From Clostridia bacterium (GTDB taxonomy: Bacteria > Bacillota > Clostridia > JBAXOJ01): a stretch of DNA of 37,955 bases. The first letter of the stretch is position 1. Every line of letters begins with the position of its first letter. This document shows positions 20,277 to 28,317 of this stretch, piece by piece. A model generated the notes under the pieces. The model was not told the DNA's origin, searched no databases, and was given only the letters and a program-made list of their open reading frames with translations. The stretch spans positions 1-37,955 of the forward strand of contig JBAXOJ010000003.1 in the NCBI GenBank assembly GCA_037133315.1. The letters run 5' to 3'. The position numbers were made by a program, and so were the translations under genes.

Positions 20277-21392
20277 ATGAAATTAGGAATTGTAGGCCTG
20301 CCGAATGTCGGCAAAAGCACGTTGTTCAATGCAATTACAAAGGCCGGAGCGGAATGTGCCAATTACCCGTTCTGCACCATCGAGCCAAACGTCGGCGTCG
20401 TCACGGTACCAGATGAACGGCTCGATAAACTCACGCAAATGTATGCCTCCCTGAAAACCATCCCCGCCATCATCGAGTTTGTCGATATCGCCGGGCTGGT
20501 CAAAGGCGCAAGTCGCGGCGAAGGCCTCGGCAATAAATTCCTCTCCCACATCCGCGAAGTGGATGCGATTTTGCACGTCGTGCGGTGCTTTGAGGACGGC
20601 AACATCATCCACGTCGACGGCGCAATCGGACCCGCGCGCGATGTTGAAACCATCTCCCTCGAGCTGATCTTCGCGGACATGGAGCTGGTCGAACGCCGCA
20701 TTGACCGGTTGCGCAAAATGCTCAAAGGTGACAAAGGGCTTCAGGTCGAAATCGACTTGCTCGTGCGCCTTCTCACTCATTTGGAAGCCGGCAAACCCGC
20801 ACGCACCCTGGAGATGACGCCGGAGGAGGCCGATCTGGCACGCGGCGTGTTTTTGCTAACGTCGAAACCAGTCATCTACGCCGCAAACATCTCCGAAGAC
20901 GACATCGTCGACCTCTCTAGCGATGACAGCGACGAGACCTCCGGCAATCCGTTTATTGTTGAATTGAAGAAATTTGCACACGCCGAAGGCTCTGAAGTCA
21001 TCGTCGTGTGTGCGAAAATAGAAGAAGAAATCGCACAGCTCGAGGATGCCGAGAAGGCGGAGTTCCTGGAAGCCCTTGGCCTCAAGGAATCTGGCCTGGA
21101 CAAGCTGGTGCGCGCGAGTTACAAGCTGCTTGGACTCATTAGCTTCCTGACGGCGGGCCCACAGGAGACCCGTGCTTGGACCATCACGAAGGGCACGCGC
21201 GCGCCGCAGGCGGCCGGCAAGATTCATACCGACTTCGAAAAGGGCTTCATCCGTGCCGAAATCGTGGCCTACGATGACCTCATGTCCCACGGCACGTACG
21301 TCGCCGCCAAGGAAAAAGGCCTGGTCCGCAGCGAAGGCAAGGACTACGTCATGAAAGACGGCGACGTGACACTTTTTAGATTTAATGTGTAA
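20277..21392 (+). CDS. ychF: Redox-regulated ATPase YchF (Obg family)
   Basis: [37 protein letters not shown] domain, and the FRFNV end. Confidence 0.98.
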
Positions 21393-21398
21393 AGGGAA

Positions 21399-21600
21399 AA
21401 GGTAAAGGCAGGCCGCTGGCGCAATGGTAGGGGCAGGCCGCTGGCGCAATTGCAGGCGTAAAAGCAAGTGCGAGAAGGTAAAAGCAGGCCCCTGGCACTA
21501 TTGCAGGCGTAAAGGCAAGTGCGAGAAGGTAAAAGCAGGCCGCTGGCGAAATTGCAGGCGTAAAGGCAAGTGCGAGAAGGTAAAAGCAGGCCCCTGGCAC
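21399..21600 (+). repeat. GC-rich 51-bp tandem repeat (~3.3 copies plus a partial copy)
   Basis: Unit GCAGGCC(G/C)CTGGC....TTGCAGGCGTAAA(A/G)GCAAGTGCGAGAAGGTAAAA starts at 21433, 21484, 21535 and 21586; partial copy at 21399-21424. Confidence 0.95.
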
Positions 21601-21636
21601 GCTTGGCCGTTCGCTAACAGCTCGGAACCAGCGAAC

Positions 21637-21913
21637 TTTAACAAAATTCTTCACATAATTGAATTCCTTGTATAAAATTAATCAAAATTCAGCACCTCAC
21701 ACAACCAAATCTAGAGGTTTTAACAAAAAACAGGGGTTACGAAAAATCCTTGTATAAAATACTTGATTATTTCACGTTTTTTTATACAAGGATTCTGAAA
21801 CAATGCGGTTTTTTGTTAAATCCAATTAATTCCTTATCGATAATCGATAAATCGGCACATGGTTTCAAGCAATTTTATACAAGGAATTCTAGAATGATAT
21901 ATATTTTGTTAAA
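21637..21913. repeat. Four copies of a bipartite 41-bp motif TTTAACAAAA-N18-TCCTTGTATAAAA, two forward then two reverse
   Basis: Forward at 21637-21677 and 21719-21759; reverse at 21780-21820 and 21873-21913. Both boxes and the 18-nt gap length are identical in all four. Confidence 0.93.
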
Positions 21914-21961
21914 ATGAGTTACCCTTACCTTTTATCTTTTCCATTTATCCCACCTACGCGT

Positions 21962-22083
21962 TTGCGCCCGCGGCATGCCTTTACCTTCTCGCCTTTGCAC
22001 CTCTTTTGCGCCATCGGCATGCACTTACCTTCTCGCCTTTACACTTCTTTTGCGCCAGTGGCATGCACTTACCTTCTCGCCTT
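21962..22083 (-). repeat. GC-rich 44-bp tandem repeat (~3 copies), inverted relative of the 51-bp array
   Basis: TTGCGCC...GGCATGC..TTACCTTCTCGCCTT starts at 21962, 22006 and 22050. Its reverse complement shares the core GCGAGAAGGTAA..GCA.GCC...GGCGCAA with the left array. Confidence 0.93.
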
Positions 22084-22140
22084 CTTATGCGAGATAAAAC
22101 GAGCGAGTCTCATCCGCGACCAGGCACAGAGGGTCATTTT

Positions 22141-23049
22141 TTATCTCAGTAACGAATAAATGCTTGATGAAAAAAATATATAATCAAGTAAAAATAATTC
22201 AATCAAGTATGGAATAATAAACAAAGTAAAATTCAAGCCTAAAGAAGTTTTTTTAAATGGATAGCTAGATTTAGATAATTGATAGAATTTGTAATTTAAA
22301 ATTAAAAATAATAATACTGACAAACCCATTGAAACGAGTGATGCAATGAAGTATATGGCGCGATTTTCATTTTTAAAAAAACAAAATATGACTAACAAAG
22401 GCATAATCCCAATAAAAAAACTTAACAAAAACCCCGCAACAAAAAAGTTTATTTCCTGTCCACGCAGCGCCCCCAGCGCCTCCGCCACCTGCGCTTCCAG
22501 TTCTGCGGGGCCGGCGTTGTTGTCGAGTACCACGTCCGCCAACGCCAAGTAGTCCGCAGGCGCGAGCTGCGTTTCCATGCGGCGGAGGCATTCTTCGCGC
22601 GTGTAGCCGCGGTCGGCCATCAGGCGTGCGATTCGCAGCTCCAAATCGGCATCCACCACCCAGACGGTATCGCACAGATCCAGGAAGCCGTCCTTCACCG
22701 GCAGCGGCACGTCGAGCGCGACGAGACGAATGCCCTTTTCCTTTAGCTTTTGAACATCGGCTTTCATTTGGACGGCGATGTGTTTGTGCAGGATCGCCTG
22801 CAGTTGTGAAAGGGCGACGCTGTCGCCAAACACCAAGTCCGCGGTCTTTTTGCGGTCAAAATTGCCGGCCGCATCCAAGATGCGTGGCCCTAATGTTTGC
22901 GTGAGCGCGTCAAGCAGTGGACCTTTTTGCGAGACTAGGCGCCTCGAGATTTCGTCCGCGTCAATGATGGCCACGCCGCGCGCCGCTAGGAGTCCAGCGA
23001 CGGTTGACTTGCCCGCGCCAATGCCGCCGGTCAGGCCAATAATTTTCAT
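22141..23049 (-). CDS. coaE: Dephospho-CoA kinase with an AT-rich C-terminal membrane extension
   Basis: MKIIGLTGGIGAGKST, IDADEIS, DVPL, RLMADRG, ADVVLDN. Directly downstream of polA. About 103 extra hydrophobic residues after ~22455. Confidence 0.9.
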   Translation of the reverse strand: MKIIGLTGGIGAGKSTVAGLLAARGVAIIDADEISRRLVSQKGPLLDALTQTLGPRILDAAGNFDRKKTADLVFGDSVALSQLQAILHKHIAVQMKADVQKLKEKGIRLVALDVPLPVKDGFLDLCDTVWVVDADLELRIARLMADRGYTREECLRRMETQLAPADYLALADVVLDNNAGPAELEAQVAEALGALRGQEINFFVAGFLLSFFIGIMPLLVIFCFFKNENRAIYFIASLVSMGLSVLLFLILNYKFYQLSKSSYPFKKTSLGLNFTLFIIPYLIELFLLDYIFFSSSIYSLLR

Positions 23050-23050
23050 T

Positions 23051-25720
23051 CTATTTGGTTTCATACCAGGAATACCCCCATTTTGCCTCCGCGCGCAACG
23101 GCACGCAAAGCTGCGCCGCGCCCTCCATGCAGGCGTCCACGATTTTGGCGACGGCCTCTGCCTCGTCTTTTGGCGCCTCCACGAGAATTTCGTCGTGGAC
23201 CTGCAGAATCAACTTGGCCTTGAAGCCCTGCGCCTTAAGTTCGGCATACACGCGCACCATCGCCACCTTCATGATGTCAGCCGCGGTGCCTTGGATTGGG
23301 GCGTTCATGGCGACGCGTTCGCCGAAGGAACGCATGTTGAAGTTGGATGCGTGCAACTCAGGAATGTAGCGCCTGCGTTTCATCAACGTCTCAATATACC
23401 CCGTGCGCTTGGCCTCGACCACAGACGCTTTCATGTAATCACGCACGCCCGTGTAAAGGGCCAGATACTCTTCGATGTAAAGCTTCGCCTCGCGGCGCGT
23501 GATGCCCAAATCGCGGGACAGCGAAAAGTCGCTGATGCCGTATACAATGCTGAAATTGACCGTCTTCGCCCGGCTGCGCATGAGGTTGGTGACCTCGCTT
23601 GCTGGGACGTTGAAAATCTGTGTGGCGGTCGTGGTGTGAATGTCTTCGCCGTTGTTGAAGGCATGGATCATGGTTTCATCCTGCGCCACGTGCGCCAGGA
23701 CGCGCAACTCAATCTGCGAATAGTCGGCATCCACGAGTAGTCGGTCCGGTGCGCCGGCCACAAAGACCTTTCGGATTTCGCGTCCCAGTTCGTGTCGGAC
23801 CGGGATGTTTTGGAGGTTCGGCTCGGTGCTGCTGAGCCGCCCTGTCGAGGTCGCCGTCTGGTTGAAGTTCGAGTGAATCCGCCCGTCCGACGGATTAATC
23901 GCCGCTAAGAGCCCGTCCGCATAGGTCGACTTCAGCTTCGCAAGTTGGCGGTATTCAAGAATCAGATTGACGATGAGATGGTCGCCACTCAACTGGTCCA
24001 GCACGTCTGCGTCCGTAGAATAGCCCGTCTTCGTCTTTTTCACAGGCGGCAGGCCAAGTTCCTCAAAGAGCACCACGCCCATTTGCTTGGGAGAGTTGAT
24101 GTTGAAGGTGCGCCCCGCGTGTTCGTAGATCGCAATCTCCAAAAGCCCGATGCGTTCGCCCAACACCCGCCCGTATTCCACAAGCTGGTCGCGATCCACT
24201 GTGAAGCCTTCGTGTTCCATCGAGGCCAACACGCCGACCAGCGGCAGTTCCACATCAAAATAAAGCGCGTCTTGCCCGTTTTCGCGCACGCGTGCATGCA
24301 AACTTTCAATCGTCACCGAAACGACAGCCGCCTTATCGGCATCACTCTGCCCGATTCTCGCAGCCACAATCCCCGTGAACGCCTCCGCGATTTCCTCGAT
24401 CCCGCGGTTCCCGAGCGACGGATTGATGACATAGGCCGCCACGAGCATATCCCCCGCCAGGCCTTGCAGTTCCGCCCCGCGGTCTTGAAGCCAGACGCAA
24501 AACTGTTTCATTTCGAAGCCGTATTTCGCTATGGACGCGTCCGTCATGACGTCGCGCAGCGCATCAAAGACCCCCGACTCGGGAAACATCAGTTCGTTGC
24601 ACTCAATCTGCCACGCATCGCCCCCACAGTGGAGCCCCAACCCGTCCAGTCGTGTGCCGTACACGTCACGATTGACCGAGGCGAAGAGGCTCACCTGCCC
24701 CGCCGTTTTGATTGCTGCGCAAACACCAGCCAGTTCGTTCAATTCATGGATTTTCACAATGTGTGGGTGAAACGCCTTCTCGTCCACGGAGATTTCTAGG
24801 ATGCCACCCGGCGCTCCTATGTTTTCGCCTTGGGCGGTGAGTTTGAGACGATTGATCATCGATTTAAAGCCGAGTTTCATAAAAATCTCGTACAATTTGG
24901 TTCTATCATAATCCTCGATGAGGTAGCCCTCGAGGTCCACAATCCCGGGGACTTCGCGGCAAATGGTCGCCAGTTCGCGACTCAAAAACGCCATCTCTTT
25001 ACTCGTCTCGAGCTTCAATTTGAGGGCAGGCTTGGTGATTTCGTCAAGGTGCGCGTAGAGCCCCTCAAGGTTGGTGTATTTTTGAATCAGCTCCATCGCG
25101 GTCTTTTCTCCAACGCCCGCAACGCCTGGGATGTTGTCGGACGAATCCCCCATCAGGCCTTTGATATCAAGCATCTGTGCTGGCGCAACACCGTACCGCT
25201 CGTGCACGGCTCCCACGTCATAGATGTCGAGCGTCGTCTTGCCCATACTCGTCTTTGGCAGACGCACCGTCGTCTTTTCGGTCACGAGCTGAAACGCGTC
25301 TTTGTCGCCGGTGAGAATGATGGCGTCATGCCCTGCCTCCTCCGCCAAACGCGTCACGGCGCCGATGATATCATCCGCCTCAAAGCCTTCGACCTCCAGG
25401 CGCGTAATCCGCATGGCATCCAAGATTTCTTTCATCATTGGCATCTGCACGGCCAGCTCTGGCGGCATGCCTTTGCGTTGGGCTTTGTACTGGTCGAATT
25501 TCAGGTGCCGAAACGTCGGCGCCTTCAAATCAAACGCCACCGCCAAGTGCTGCGGCTTGACTTCCTCCAACTCTTTAAAGAGGATGTTGAGGAAGCCAAA
25601 AAGTGCGTTGGTGGGCGTGCCGTCTGCCGCCGTCAGGTTCTGCCCCGACGTGCCATAAAACGCCCTATTCAAAATGCTATTGCCATCAATCACGAGCAAC
25701 TTTTCGCTGGTCTCCATCAT
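23051..25720 (-). CDS. polA: DNA polymerase I
   Basis: 5'-3' exonuclease (IDGNSILNRAFY, EADD, GDKD, GDSSDNIPGV); PolA motifs TGRLSSTEPNLQNIP, DYSQIELR, AKTVNF, NAPIQG, QVHDE. Confidence 0.98.
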   Translation of the reverse strand: MMETSEKLLVIDGNSILNRAFYGTSGQNLTAADGTPTNALFGFLNILFKELEEVKPQHLAVAFDLKAPTFRHLKFDQYKAQRKGMPPELAVQMPMMKEILDAMRITRLEVEGFEADDIIGAVTRLAEEAGHDAIILTGDKDAFQLVTEKTTVRLPKTSMGKTTLDIYDVGAVHERYGVAPAQMLDIKGLMGDSSDNIPGVAGVGEKTAMELIQKYTNLEGLYAHLDEITKPALKLKLETSKEMAFLSRELATICREVPGIVDLEGYLIEDYDRTKLYEIFMKLGFKSMINRLKLTAQGENIGAPGGILEISVDEKAFHPHIVKIHELNELAGVCAAIKTAGQVSLFASVNRDVYGTRLDGLGLHCGGDAWQIECNELMFPESGVFDALRDVMTDASIAKYGFEMKQFCVWLQDRGAELQGLAGDMLVAAYVINPSLGNRGIEEIAEAFTGIVAARIGQSDADKAAVVSVTIESLHARVRENGQDALYFDVELPLVGVLASMEHEGFTVDRDQLVEYGRVLGERIGLLEIAIYEHAGRTFNINSPKQMGVVLFEELGLPPVKKTKTGYSTDADVLDQLSGDHLIVNLILEYRQLAKLKSTYADGLLAAINPSDGRIHSNFNQTATSTGRLSSTEPNLQNIPVRHELGREIRKVFVAGAPDRLLVDADYSQIELRVLAHVAQDETMIHAFNNGEDIHTTTATQIFNVPASEVTNLMRSRAKTVNFSIVYGISDFSLSRDLGITRREAKLYIEEYLALYTGVRDYMKASVVEAKRTGYIETLMKRRRYIPELHASNFNMRSFGERVAMNAPIQGTAADIMKVAMVRVYAELKAQGFKAKLILQVHDEILVEAPKDEAEAVAKIVDACMEGAAQLCVPLRAEAKWGYSWYETK

Positions 25721-25799
25721 GTCGCCACGCTCCTCCGCGTATTCAAGTACTTTGGGTAGATTATATCATTTTTGCGATTCGAAATGGAAATAAAATTTG

Positions 25800-25839
25800 A
25801 TATTTGTAGTTTACAAATATTCCCATTCTATGATATGAT
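25800..25839 (+). promoter_or_regulatory. Putative promoter of the RAYT-like gene with an overlapping perfect inverted repeat
   Basis: TTTACA (25810-25815)-N18-TATGAT (25834-25839) with TGn extension. ATATTTGTA-GTT-TACAAATAT at 25800-25820 covers the -35. Confidence 0.55.
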
Positions 25840-25867
25840 AACCTTTCAAATTGGGGAGGCGGTTTTC

Positions 25868-26878
25868 ATTAGGTATTTCAGTTTTCATGTCTGGATTCAC
25901 GGGTTTGGCAGCCAGTCTTTGTGTCGCGACGACGCGGACAAATTCGAGATGGTGCGTACACTCGCTAAAACCTGCCTTGACACCGATCGCGGACTATTCG
26001 GGTATGACGCACTACACACGCATCTGCACTTTATGTTTGGGTTGCGTTGGGGTGCACGCGAGGATCCGCCTGCTGGTTGGGCTGTCGTACAAATCAAGGA
26101 TTTTTGCCATCTTCTGCGTCGGCGTTATGGGGCGTATTTTAGGCATCGCTACCCGCATTTCAAGGGCGATTTGTTCGCGCGCGAACACGACAACTTTACC
26201 GCGTCCGGGAATCCCGATGCCTTTGTGGCGCAGCTCAAATACCTGCATCACAACAGCGTGGGTGCGCGGATTTTCGACGTCTATGAAGAAAATCCATTTT
26301 GCTCCTTCCCACTCTATCTCTCCGCCTTTGTGCACAATCCCGAGATCCAGAACGTGCCCATCGTGCGGGCTGTCTCACAGAATCCCGCGTATTTGCCAAT
26401 CTACGATGCACTCGACATGGAATATGCGTTAGGCCAATTCCGCGGCCACTTTGACCAACGCGTCCGCAACTTCATCAAGCAGCACGAATCCTACCTACAA
26501 TACCGAAGCCGCAATGCGCAACATAGGCATAACCAACTTGGGGTCGGCACGCTATTCCGCGACGCCGATGCGCTCCAAATTGCGAATACGAGCGGTCATC
26601 AAGTCCTGCGTCTCATCGACCAAATCAACGGGCGCAAATCCGAACTCCTTTTGTCAGGCGCCTCGTCGCCTCAAGAGGCGTCGGACACCTTTCGCTCCTT
26701 CTTTCCTTTTGATGAGGACACCGTGGATGTTAAAAAACACTTTTTGCACATTCGAGACCAGTATCCAGACGCGTTTCAGAAATTTATCCAAGCGCTGGGG
26801 CAAACTTGCACCCAAAGAGGCCTATCCGCGATGACTGGGATTTGCCGTGCAAACATCAAAACCCTCCTTACACAGTAA
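25868..26878 (+). CDS. Divergent REP-associated tyrosine transposase (RAYT)-like HUH/Y1 nuclease with putative C-terminal HTH
   Basis: FHVWIHG...RDDADK...GYDALHTHLHF (HUH)...RYGAYFRHRY...GDLF...KYLHHN (catalytic Tyr position)...PFCSF..Y follows the Y1_Tnp/RAYT motif order. C-terminus TQRGLSAMTGICRANIK is HTH-like. Start uncertain: ATT at 25868 has a GGGGAGG SD; the frame is open from 25772. Confidence 0.75.
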   Translation: MRYFSFHVWIHGFGSQSLCRDDADKFEMVRTLAKTCLDTDRGLFGYDALHTHLHFMFGLRWGAREDPPAGWAVVQIKDFCHLLRRRYGAYFRHRYPHFKGDLFAREHDNFTASGNPDAFVAQLKYLHHNSVGARIFDVYEENPFCSFPLYLSAFVHNPEIQNVPIVRAVSQNPAYLPIYDALDMEYALGQFRGHFDQRVRNFIKQHESYLQYRSRNAQHRHNQLGVGTLFRDADALQIANTSGHQVLRLIDQINGRKSELLLSGASSPQEASDTFRSFFPFDEDTVDVKKHFLHIRDQYPDAFQKFIQALGQTCTQRGLSAMTGICRANIKTLLTQ

Positions 26879-27127
26879 GGAGGGCAAATCCGTACCACTC
26901 TTTACAGTAAGGACGCGAAATCCGTACCACGTCATTCGATGAGCTTGCAATCTAGTGGCGCCAAAAGTATTTTCACGCTTGCTCGAGCATTAAAACGAGA
27001 GAAATAATGATAAAAGATATAAAAAAACGTACAAAAAGCAAAATGTAAAGGCATTTGTCGTTTTTCGCGGTACGGATTTACCTCACTTACTGTGTTTTGA
27101 GCAGTAAGGACACGAAATCCGTACCAC
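26872..27127. repeat. Cluster of four 27-bp REP-like repeats, consensus ACAGTAAG-N6-AAATCCGTACCAC
   Basis: Forward at 26872-26898, 26904-26930 and 27101-27127; reverse at 27067-27093. The first copy contains the TAA of the RAYT-like gene. Confidence 0.9.
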
Positions 27128-27165
27128 TCAAGTTAGTCCGAGAACTTTCCCATCGCGCACAAGCA

Positions 27166-28317
27166 TTATGATTTGCGATACCGCCCATTCCTCTTTAATG
27201 CCATGATTTCTTCAATAATTTGATTGACCGCACCTGGCTTTGCAAGCACGAATGCCTGTTTGCTCATGCGCGCCAAGATTGCTGGGGTCCCAAGCAGGTC
27301 GTTGATTGTTTCTGAAAGGACAGCGGCGCTCAGGTTGCTTTCTAATACCAGAAAAGCAGCGCCTTGTTTTTGAAAGGTAAGGGCATTTTTCTCCTGGTGG
27401 TTCGCCGTGACGTTTGGCGACGGAATCAAGATGGAAGGAAGCCCCATGACCGCTAACTCAGAGAGCGTAATCGCACCTGCGCGGCAAATGATTAAATCCG
27501 CGGCGGCATAGACTTCCGCGACGTTATGGATAAAGCTTCGAATTTCGACACCAACTGGCACGGGACTTGCCGCAAACTGCCCAAGCACGGCCTCGTAGCG
27601 CCCTTCGCCGGTCGCAAACAAGAGTCGATAACCCTTGACTTGATTGCTAAATTGACCCACCTGGATGGGCGATTGGTAAAAATTCTGGATGAGCGAAACC
27701 ATGGTTTCGTTGATTTTTTCCGCGCCCAAACTTCCGCCCATGACGACCACCAAGCGGTCACCGACGGTGAGATTCATTTTTTCGCGACATTCTTTGCGGT
27801 TCACCGTCAACAGTTCTTCCCGCACTGGGTTCCCTGTGAGCGAGACATACCGGGCTGATTTGAAAAACTGCCGCGATTCCTCGAACGAAATACAGACCGT
27901 GTCAACAAAGCGTGCGAGCAGTTTGTTTGTCACACCAGGCACTGCATTTTGCTCGTGAATCAAGGTTGGAATTTTCATGCGAGACGCGCAAAACAACACT
28001 GGGCCACACACATATCCGCCCATGCCGATGACAATATCGGGCTGAAAACGTTTTATGATTGCCTTCGCGTCCGCATAGCCCTCAAACATTTTTTGAAACG
28101 AAGAAAAGAACTCCAACCCAATTTTGCGCTGGAATCCGCTGACGCGAATAAATTCAATTTGAAATCCTTCTTGCGGGATGATACGTGATTCCATCCCTTT
28201 TTCCGTGCCGATAAATAATATTTCTACGCCATCTTGTTTTTTGACTAATCTCTTCGCCAAAGCAATCCCGGGATAAATATGACCCGCCGTCCCGCCGCCT
28301 GCGATGATGATCCGCAT
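27166..28317 (-). CDS. murG: MurG glycosyltransferase
   Basis: GGGTAGHIYP, GMGGYV, HEQNA, TGNPVR, GGSLGA, CRAGA, HQEKNA. Confidence 0.97.
   Translation of the reverse strand: MRIIIAGGGTAGHIYPGIALAKRLVKKQDGVEILFIGTEKGMESRIIPQEGFQIEFIRVSGFQRKIGLEFFSSFQKMFEGYADAKAIIKRFQPDIVIGMGGYVCGPVLFCASRMKIPTLIHEQNAVPGVTNKLLARFVDTVCISFEESRQFFKSARYVSLTGNPVREELLTVNRKECREKMNLTVGDRLVVVMGGSLGAEKINETMVSLIQNFYQSPIQVGQFSNQVKGYRLLFATGEGRYEAVLGQFAASPVPVGVEIRSFIHNVAEVYAAADLIICRAGAITLSELAVMGLPSILIPSPNVTANHQEKNALTFQKQGAAFLVLESNLSAAVLSETINDLLGTPAILARMSKQAFVLAKPGAVNQIIEEIMALKRNGRYRKS

What the first reader, a model, noticed from the sequence alone, without database searches (positions are those of the whole stretch)
21637..21913. 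Four bipartite sites with exactly conserved 18-nt variable spacers in a nested inverted layout
Seen: TTTAACAAAA-N18-TCCTTGTATAAAA occurs twice forward and twice reverse. All 23 box positions and the gap length are identical in the four copies, while the gap sequences and inter-copy distances differ. The outer copies share extended GAATTCCTTGTATAAAATT and the inner copies share AAC next to the first box, consistent with 1:4 and 2:3 pairing in a ~277-nt nested hairpin or cruciform. Inference: fixed boxes with a free but length-constrained spacer point to selection as protein or recombinase binding sites, a structured ncRNA, or a non-autonomous hairpin element. I do not recognise the motif from any named family.
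Basis: partly seen in the sequence, partly recalled or inferred. Interest (0 to 1): 0.75.

Follow-up and report, generated by a model that had tools for sequence, protein, structure and literature searches.

The report
Four-site repeat element with cognate nuclease
The four sites are one copy of a dispersed 265-base repeat whose conserved boxes are most likely docking sites for a previously unnamed, widespread nuclease-like protein, a pairing that resembles known repeat-plus-enzyme partnerships in bacteria but uses different parts.

Summary
The four 41-nt sites (10-nt box, 18 nt, 13-nt box; + + - -) are one of 17 loci of a 263-277-nt element, here called F1, in this 2.1-Mb genome. Box positions differ at 3.6% between copies and all other positions at 45%, yet every segment length is fixed (spacers 17-18, linkers 41, centre 20). 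There are no decayed relics and no covariation supporting an RNA fold.

A motif-free scan found three more families (F2-F4) with other box sequences but the same four-site, 82-nt-period plan, about 49 elements in all.

Three of five paralogues of an orphan ~280-aa protein sit beside an F1, an F2 and an F3 copy (P = 3.4e-4). The protein has a helical hairpin, modelled as a dimer interface, and a C-terminal restriction-endonuclease-like fold. Its family has 7353 clusters, and no named homologue is annotated. Homologues in other genomes also sit beside arrays of box-spacer-box sites. One such genome has about nine clusters, seven of them of four sites.

Best reading: a solo, non-autonomous copy of a repeat family bound, and perhaps moved or maintained, by a cognate dimeric nuclease. 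This is analogous to REPIN/RAYT (interspersed repeats kept by a single-copy HUH transposase). Binding and cleavage are inferred, not shown.

The parts
21637..21677 (+). Outer site of the B arm: box 1 TTTAACAAAA, 18-nt spacer, box 2 TCCTTGTATAAAA
   Evidence: Exact match. Aligned with 16 other copies.
21678..21718 (.). B linker, 41 nt
   Evidence: Length is 41 in 16 of 17 copies. The sequence is only loosely conserved.
21719..21759 (+). Inner site of the B arm
   Evidence: Exact match.
21760..21779 (.). Centre, 20 nt, on the dyad axis of the element
   Evidence: Length is 20 in 17 of 17 copies.
21780..21820 (-). Inner site of the A arm
   Evidence: Exact match.
21821..21872 (.). A linker, 52 nt here (41 nt plus an 11-nt insertion); contains the TTATCG..CGATAA mini-palindrome
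   Evidence: Length is 41 in 14 of 17 copies, 42 in 2, and 52 only here. See the alignment.
21873..21913 (-). Outer site of the A arm
   Evidence: Exact match.
21391..21609 (-). Left array of the GC-rich unit (about GCGCCAGCGGCCTGC.TTTACCTTCTCGC), period 51. This is a separate repeat family that usually flanks F1 cores.
   Evidence: TRF 21433-21598, 3.3 copies. Census: 49 strict copies, 25 of them within 700 nt of a core.
21961..22092 (+). Right array of the same GC-rich unit, period 44, inverted relative to the left array
   Evidence: Folding is not significant (z -0.75 and -1.73).
25772..26878 (+). Not part of the element. One of six paralogues of an orphan HUH-motif protein, with its own REP-like repeats downstream.

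Best explanation
Window 21637-21913 is one solo copy of an interspersed, non-coding, dyad-symmetric element, family F1, with 17 loci in this genome.

Each arm carries two 41-bp bipartite sites 82 bp apart, and the arms face each other across a 20-bp centre. The boxes are DNA recognition sites for a sequence-specific dimeric protein. Each subunit reads one box, and the two reading heads are held a fixed distance apart. That is why the spacer is free in sequence but fixed in length. The fixed 82/61/82 layout brings four bound dimers into one higher-order complex.

The most likely protein is the F1-linked member (G000:C107:5809-6663) of an orphan family. It has an N-terminal helical-hairpin dimerisation module and a C-terminal PD-(D/E)XK (Vsr / TnsA / I-Bth0305I-like) nuclease domain. 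Its paralogues pair with sister families F2 and F3.

The partnership resembles REPIN/RAYT: a single-copy enzyme gene lies next to one copy of its repeat, and many solo copies are dispersed and kept intact.

Shown here: the repeat family, its geometry, box-specific conservation, gene adjacency, the nuclease fold, and the same association in other genomes. Inferred: binding, dimeric reading of the two boxes, cleavage, and any role in copying or maintaining the repeats.
For: (1) Family and geometry. There are 63 sites against 0 for the control pattern. A profile search finds only the 17 loci and no relics. Spacers are 18 or 17 nt, linkers are 41 nt in 14 of 17 and 16 of 17 copies, and the centre is 20 nt in 17 of 17. 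Box mismatches total 43 of 1564 positions.

(2) Selection on the boxes. Pairwise divergence is 3.6% in boxes and 45% elsewhere. The nearest-neighbour non-box divergence is 28-52%. In one orthologous strain pair, 0 of 92 box positions changed against 19 of 174 non-box positions (p = 2e-4).

(3) No RNA support.

(4) A motif-free scan gives 36 loci at spacing 80-84 and 0 at each of four control spacings. These fall into four families with different boxes.

(5) Three of five paralogues lie within 160 nt of an F1, an F2 and an F3 copy. Among all ORFs, 56 of 1667 do so. Hypergeometric P = 3.4e-4.

(6) Fold. The C-terminal model has pLDDT 95.8. Structural matches are I-Bth0305I Z 9.2 (rmsd 3.0, 94 residues), Bax1 8.6, TnsA 8.0 (115 residues) and Vsr 7.5. 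Foldseek gives Bax1 E 1e-3 and DrdV 3e-3. E, D, E-H and K are invariant in 50 sequences.

(7) The homodimer model scores 0.46 against a best control of 0.17. In the tool's calibration, 20 of 30 solved homomers and 1 of 23 single chains reach the mark. Runs agree in at least 59% of contacts, with partner pLDDT at least 68. The interface is the helical hairpin.

(8) Other genomes. 14 of 27 homologue loci have recurring box-spacer-box sites against 3 of 20 control loci (p = 0.0096). Genome G069 has 34 TTTACCCCAA-N19-TTGGGGTAAA sites (control 0) in about nine clusters, seven of them of four sites. One cluster of five sits directly upstream of a homologue. A second G069 paralogue has a different box family.
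Against: No binding or cleavage has been measured.

Two of the five paralogues (C1, C195) have no recognised element beside them. Family F4 has no gene assigned. The assembly is 88% complete and both contigs end close by.

The position of the element relative to the gene varies: downstream for F1, upstream for F2 and F3.

The second orthologous strain pair showed 2 of 92 box changes against 2 of 174 non-box changes, which is no contrast. The pooled p is 0.004.

Thirteen of 27 homologue loci elsewhere showed no recurring palindromes under my exact-7-mer rule.

Fold matches have modest scores (Foldseek E >= 1e-3). The dimer model used a 5-row alignment.

No target-site duplication or clean empty site was found, so mobility is not demonstrated.
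Confidence: 0.6

Rival explanations
1. Operator arrays of a regulator. The nuclease-fold protein, or another DNA-binding protein, uses the four-site modules as architectural or regulatory sites (silencing, insulation, autoregulation). The modules were spread long ago, and nothing is moved or cut today.
For: Boxes and geometry are conserved in place at every locus, with no young copies: nearest-neighbour non-box divergence is at least 28%. There are no relics. In other genomes the arrays lie directly upstream of the homologue, overlapping its ribosome-binding region. All inter-site distances keep helical phase (82, 61 and 93; 53 and 104 in sister families).
Against: Copies lie in every kind of context: between convergent genes, inside an operon, and abutting a stop codon. 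The catalytic-type residues E, D, E-H and K are invariant in 50 homologues, which argues for an active nuclease. A related species carries a copy at a non-homologous place, so the module has been copied to new sites.
Confidence: 0.2
2. Classical MITE. This would be an internally deleted derivative of a DDE transposon whose long ends each carry two transposase sites, as in Tc1/mariner IR-DR ends or Mu/Tn7 multi-site ends. The neighbouring nuclease-like genes would be coincidental.
For: It has terminal inverted repeats of 43 nt (81% complementary), sharp ends at TTTAAC...GTTAAA, a constant size, no ORF, and many intergenic copies. One copy supplies the stop codon of a helicase gene. Sister families are as expected from related transposons.
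Against: No target-site duplication was visible at 18 copies. No longer element has the same ends. There are no DDE_3, rve or resolvase genes, and the only DDE_Tnp_1 gene lies on an unrelated AT-rich contig without the boxes. All copies are old, yet their boxes are intact. The gene adjacency is unlikely by chance.
Confidence: 0.1
3. Structured RNA or single-strand hairpin. The element is transcribed, or becomes single-stranded, and folds into the nested 1:4 / 2:3 hairpin. In that form it acts as an sRNA, an RNase III substrate, or a substrate of the HUH-motif (RAYT-like) proteins of this genome.
For: The inner pair folds strongly (-31.8 kcal/mol, z -7.5). Six HUH-motif paralogues, each with its own hairpin repeats, exist in the genome. 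Weak sigma-70-like matches occur inside the sites (8 found against 2.5 expected).
Against: The covariation term is +0.35. Only 1 of 50 pairs has a double change, and single box changes break pairs. The spacers would form 18x18 internal loops. Rfam has no match. No terminator-like site was found. None of the six HUH-motif genes is flanked by F1-F4. Sister family F2 sites are not self-complementary.
Confidence: 0.07

Closest known systems
REPIN / REP sequences with their RAYT (HUH Y1) transposase
   Same: Short non-coding palindromic repeats are dispersed in intergenic DNA and inherited vertically for long periods. A single-copy cognate enzyme gene lies beside its own repeats, and several enzyme/repeat pairs can exist in one genome. 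(Established knowledge; I saw only the search listing of bioRxiv 10.1101/2021.07.10.451892.) This genome also has six HUH-motif genes with their own repeats.
   Different: Here the repeat is a 265-bp, AT-rich, four-site module with bipartite boxes and free spacers, not a 20-40-nt GC-rich hairpin doublet. The candidate enzyme has a PD-(D/E)XK fold, not an HUH fold. F1 copies differ from one another by 45% outside the boxes.
I-Bth0305I (EDxHD homing endonuclease family) and Vsr
   Same: This is the best structural match of the C-terminal domain (Z 9.2, rmsd 3.0, 94 residues). I-Bth0305I is a multidomain homodimer that footprints about 60 bp (abstract of PMC3239194). That parallels a dimer reading two boxes about 30 bp apart.
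   Different: I-Bth0305I lies in a phage group I intron and recognises a 14-bp pseudopalindrome centred on its cut site (same abstract). The protein here is free-standing, has a different N-terminal part, and is linked to repeated four-site arrays. There was no sequence-level match to any PDB chain for the HUH family, and this family was not tested that way.
TnsA of Tn7 and multi-site transposon ends (Tn7, Mu, IR-DR Tc1/mariner)
   Same: It has the TnsA-like fold (Z 8.0, 115 residues). Each arm carries two protein sites in direct order, with the arms inverted, as in IR-DR ends and Mu/Tn7 ends (recalled knowledge).
   Different: No TnsB-type (rve) or DDE_3 gene is in the assembly. No cargo lies between the arms and no target duplication was seen.
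MITE-like repeats such as Correia (CREE), ERIC, RUP and BOX
   Same: These are small, non-coding, palindromic and intergenic, with many copies. A 13-nt string of the Correia terminal repeat resembles box 1. I recalled that string, and it is present in the Correia papers listed.
   Different: Those families are conserved along their whole length. None is described with four phased bipartite sites or with a linked nuclease gene. The resemblance to Correia is a short AT-rich string and was not tested further.

Membership tests
Classical MITE | Terminal inverted repeats, small size, no ORF, many copies | tested here: met
   43-nt arms, 81% complementary. Size 263-277 nt at 17 loci.
Classical MITE | Target-site duplication at both ends | tested here: not met
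   No direct repeat is adjacent to the ends in 18 copies inspected. Where flanks are alike, it is the GC-rich unit array.
Classical MITE | Autonomous parent with the same ends and a DDE transposase | tested here: not met
   All sites lie in quads. PF13358, PF00665 and PF00239 are absent, and the one PF01609 gene lacks the boxes. The assembly is 88% complete, so absence is not proven.
REPIN / REP-RAYT | Cognate HUH Y1 gene flanked by the repeat | tested here: not met
   The six HUH-motif paralogues are each flanked by other repeat families, none of them F1-F4. PF01797 was not matched.
REPIN / REP-RAYT | Single-copy enzyme gene beside one copy of its repeat, with solo copies elsewhere (the working principle) | tested here: met
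   This holds for the PD-(D/E)XK-like paralogues with F1, F2 and F3, and in G069.
Structured non-coding RNA | Compensatory base changes, or a match to a described family | tested here: not met
   Covariation term +0.35; 1 of 50 pairs has a double change. Rfam: 0 at gathering threshold, and only chance-level rows at E <= 10.
Sigma-70 promoter | Two hexamers 16-18 nt apart | tested here: not met
   The TTAACA of box 1 and the TATAAA of box 2 are 27 nt apart (read from the sequence). The scan finds only 9-10 of 12 matches that use spacer bases.
PD-(D/E)XK nuclease superfamily (the protein) | Restriction-endonuclease-like alpha/beta core | tested here: met
   pLDDT 95.8. The top 30 VIA rows and the top Foldseek rows are nearly all nucleases of this fold.
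PD-(D/E)XK nuclease superfamily (the protein) | Acidic and lysine catalytic residues in place | tested here: inconclusive
   E32, D62, E77-H78 and K94 are invariant in 50 sequences. I did not superpose them on a known active site.
EDxHD homing endonucleases | Gene embedded in an intron or intein, cutting the empty allele | tested here: not met
   The genes are free-standing between ordinary genes.
Tn7-like (TnsA with TnsB) | Partner rve-type transposase | tested here: not met
   PF00665 gave no match in G000.

The most novel reading that the evidence does not exclude
A large protein family (7353 clusters; every named homologue seen is called hypothetical) of dimeric PD-(D/E)XK nucleases forms, together with four-site box-spacer-box repeat modules, a new class of persistent genomic partnership. 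Each paralogue co-evolves with its own repeat family. It keeps the boxes of all solo copies intact by cutting and templated repair (a homing-like gene conversion) or by moving the copies. Four bound dimers would assemble on the phased sites into one synaptic complex.
Probability: 0.35. Interest if true: 0.85.

Novelty: new variant of a known kind. Interest (0 to 1): 0.78.

Why it matters
If the pairing holds, it gives a function and a DNA target to a family of thousands of 'hypothetical' proteins. It adds a second enzyme type (a restriction-fold nuclease) to the repeat-plus-enzyme partnerships so far known mainly from REP/RAYT.

It also offers natural sets of matched protein/site pairs (F1-F4, plus pairs in other genomes). 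From these, the recognition code of a long, bipartite, fixed-spacing DNA reader could be worked out.

Practically, such elements and their GC-rich neighbours break assemblies. Many of the loci here lie at contig ends.

Tried and rejected
Rfam at gathering threshold and at E <= 10 gave nothing meaningful.

Searches for the F1 motif elsewhere:
- Species-representative genomes gave 0. A looser palindrome gave two plain AT-rich hairpins in unrelated MAGs.
- Viral contigs gave 0. Plasmids and phages by blastn gave 0.
- 40 same-class genomes gave 0.

Literature: a search for the box strings returned only vector and primer papers. Searches on endonuclease plus interspersed palindromic repeats found nothing describing this element.

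Earlier notes of this scan returned nothing.

Motif comparisons made from memory (alternative sigma factors, dif/Xer arms, LytTR, BirA, TnrA and similar) gave no convincing fit and are not used.

I looked for a DDE, serine or tyrosine recombinase partner. There is no DDE_3, rve or resolvase gene. There are two tyrosine recombinases and one DDE_Tnp_1 gene with no link to the boxes.

I examined the HUH-motif protein family as a possible partner. It has its own repeats, not F1-F4. It has no Pfam match and no PDB sequence match, so its HUH assignment rests on motifs read by eye.

The VIA search with the full-length model was swamped by coiled-coil matches.

Reads: only contigs were available. One RNA-library contig from a roughly 93%-identical relative joins 21455 to 22464 without the core, and a DNA contig joins 22040 to 22466. 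These show that the spacer region varies between relatives. They are not a clean empty site, and they give no evidence on transcription.

GC-rich arrays are not significantly structured.

Full report
**Observation.** The pattern TTTAACAAAA-N18-TCCTTGTATAAAA is present four times with no mismatch, at 21637 and 21719 on the + strand and at 21780 and 21873 on the - strand. None of 100 shuffles gave any match. The region lies between the 3' ends of a ychF-type GTPase gene (20277-21392, +) and a coaE gene (22141-23064, -). It is bracketed by two arrays of a GC-rich 44-51-nt unit in inverted orientation.

**It is a repeat family.**
- The window's own genome (2.12 Mb, 226 contigs, 46% G+C, 88% complete) has 63 matches at <=2 mismatches. 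The reversed control pattern has none.
- The matches fall into 17 loci, nearly all with the order + + - -. Two contig-end pieces are joined into one locus by a metagenome contig.
- The element has sharp ends (TTTAAC ... GTTAAA) and a size of 263-266 nt. The window copy is 277 nt because of an 11-nt insertion in one linker.
- The two arms differ in their linkers (A and B), so the element has a polarity. The window copy has B on the left.
- A profile search finds only these loci and no decayed copies.

**Conservation pattern.**
- In the 17-copy alignment, box positions differ pairwise by 3.6% and all other positions by 45%. Even nearest neighbours differ by 28-52% outside the boxes. Box mismatches total 43 of 1564 positions.
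- Lengths are fixed despite this divergence. Spacers are 18 nt (sometimes 17). Linkers are 41 nt in 14 of 17 and 16 of 17 copies. The centre is 20 nt in all 17.
- Two strain-level comparisons of the same locus gave different results. One showed 0 of 92 box changes against 19 of 174 elsewhere (p = 2e-4). The other showed 2 of 92 against 2 of 174. Pooled p is 0.004.
- My inference: 82, 61 and 93 bp (and 53 and 104 bp in the sister families) all differ by near-multiples of a helical turn, so the sites stay on one face of the DNA.

**Not an RNA fold.** RNAalifold returns the nested hairpin only through the boxes. The covariation term is +0.35 and 1 of 50 pairs shows a double change. Single changes break pairs, and the spacers do not pair. 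Rfam gives nothing. The promoter and terminator scan gives only weak promoter-like matches and no terminator.

**Distribution and mobility.**
- The F1 motif was not found in 40 same-class genomes, species-representative genomes, viral contigs, plasmids or phages.
- Twelve metagenome contigs carry it. Most are the same organism.
- One contig comes from a relative about 89% identical in a flanking gene. It has a copy at a non-homologous place and without GC-rich flanks. Its closest paralogue shares about 22 and 9 further bases beyond the boxes.
- Copies sit between convergent genes, inside the hypF-hypC spacer, upstream of genes, and once supply a stop codon.
- No target duplication was seen.
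- Contigs of relatives show that the ychF-coaE spacer varies. There is no clean empty site and nothing on transcription.

**A superfamily.** I scanned for any 8- or 9-mer repeated at a set distance whose reverse complement is likewise repeated downstream. It gives 36 loci at 80-84 nt and none at 60-64, 70-74, 90-94 or 100-104 nt. They form four families:

| Family | Box 1 | Box 2 | Inner-to-inner distance |
|---|---|---|---|
| F1 | TTTAACAAAA | TCCTTGTATAAAA | 61-62 |
| F2 | AAATAACTTTT | TTTGTATAT | 53 |
| F3 | TTTACAA | AAAAGTGTATAAA | 104 |
| F4 | TTAACC | AAACTTATAAG | 52-53 |

All four keep two sites per arm 82 nt apart. There are about 49 elements in all. F4 copies lie next to F1 copies in contigs C6 and C44, and about 1 kb away in C34.

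**Candidate cognate protein.**
- An all-against-all comparison of 1667 ORFs shows a five-member orphan family of ~270-290 aa, 34-41% identical to the first member.
- Three members adjoin elements. The C107 gene ends 27 nt before an F1 copy, and that copy is the most divergent F1 copy. The C40 gene starts about 130 nt from an F3 copy. The C26 gene has an F2 arm upstream at the contig end.
- Only 56 of 1667 ORFs have an element within 160 nt, so 3 of 5 gives P = 3.4e-4. This is before allowing for the roughly 50 families I looked through.
- Pfam and NCBIfam give no family.
- The profile finds 7353 clusters in 1.84 billion representatives. The named homologues are all 'hypothetical protein' of Bacillota.
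- The full model (pLDDT 77) shows a long helical hairpin, a small sheet and a C-terminal alpha/beta domain.
- The C-terminal domain, modelled with 50 sequences (pLDDT 95.8), matches PD-(D/E)XK nucleases: I-Bth0305I Z 9.2, Bax1 8.6 and 8.3, TnsA 8.0 and Vsr 7.5. Foldseek gives Bax1 E 1e-3 and DrdV 3e-3.
- E, D, E-H and K are invariant in 50 sequences.
- A homodimer model passes its controls: 0.46 against a best control of 0.17. In the calibration, 20 of 30 solved homomers and 1 of 23 single chains reach the mark. Contact agreement is at least 59% and pLDDT at least 68. The interface is on the helical hairpin.

**Other genomes.**
- Homologues at E <= 1e-20 occur in 17 of 299 other same-class genomes, usually in several copies.
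- Recurring box-spacer-box sites occur in 14 of 27 homologue loci against 3 of 20 control loci taken at a distance of about 10-40 kb on the same contigs (p = 0.0096). Four or more sites occur in 10 of 27 against 0 of 20.
- In G069, five TTTACCCCAA-N19-TTGGGGTAAA sites lie directly upstream of one homologue. The genome holds 34 such sites (control 0) in about nine clusters, seven of them of four sites, with a period of 52-53. Another G069 paralogue has a different box family upstream.

**Reading.** The window feature is a solo member of a repeat family. Its boxes are recognition sites of a cognate dimeric nuclease-like protein, and its fixed geometry suits a four-dimer complex. Whether the protein moves the repeats, repairs them by conversion, or only binds them is open.

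**Rivals.** The alternatives are a purely regulatory or architectural role, a classical MITE of an unseen DDE transposon, and an RNA or single-strand hairpin role.

**Side finding.** The genome also holds six paralogues of an orphan protein with HUH-type motifs, which I read by eye. One lies in the window at 25772-26878. Each is flanked by its own REP-like repeats.

Noticed in passing
window 25772-26878 (+) and about 26900-27350; also G000 C58:4929-6011, C15:21483-22517, C89:2228-3238, C75:9649-10392, C106:5229-6263: Six paralogues (30-39% identical) of an orphan ~370-aa protein with conserved THxHF, RRYGAYYR and YIHxN motifs (HUH/Y1-like, read by eye). It has no Pfam match and no PDB sequence match. 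Each is flanked by its own family of REP-like hairpin repeats, as RAYT genes are.
   Followed up: partly
window 21391-21609 and 21961-22092; 49 strict copies genome-wide: A GC-rich 42-51-nt unit (GCGCCAGCGGCATGC.TTTACCTT..CGCC) occurs in tandem arrays. 25 of 49 copies lie within 700 nt of an F1 core, usually in direct orientation on both sides. Copy number differs between strains. The TTACCTT core also occurs inside the repeats that flank three of the HUH-motif genes.
   Followed up: partly
window 22141-22463: The coaE ORF runs on for about 107 codons into a unique AT-rich stretch after the CoaE domain ends (aa 185). Contigs of relatives join near 22464-22466 without this stretch, so the tail looks like read-through into inserted DNA.
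   Followed up: partly
G000 C20:1228, C32:5271, C42:13913, C45:14907, C49:11130 and others (F2); C16:61, C22:14524, C40:2873 and others (F3); C6:3048, C9:15286, C38:312 and others (F4): Three sister families share the four-site, 82-nt-period plan but have other boxes. F4 copies lie beside F1 copies in C6 and C44.
   Followed up: yes
G000 C19:19515, C58:4805 and 6181, C181:3125, C183:15 and 2258, C34:2331, C64:6550: Eight isolated palindromes TATACAA-N20-22-TTGTATA (six at N22, none at any other gap from 0 to 60). Their half-site matches box 2 of F1. Two of them lie in the repeats flanking the C58 HUH-motif gene.
   Followed up: no
G000 C101:6703-7003, C39:8664-8964, C54, C70, C81, C6:23672 and others: A separate ~300-nt interspersed repeat family, 80-93% identical between copies. 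At C101 it replaces the outer A site of the F1 copy.
   Followed up: no
G000 C212 (2148 nt): An AT-rich short contig carries the only DDE_Tnp_1 transposase gene of the assembly. Its composition is unlike the rest, so it may be foreign or mis-binned.
   Followed up: partly
G000 C1:1-225: Upstream of the C1 paralogue of the nuclease-like family, a CTTATTTGAGT box recurs about 40 nt apart at the contig start. This may be the arm of a fifth element family.
   Followed up: no
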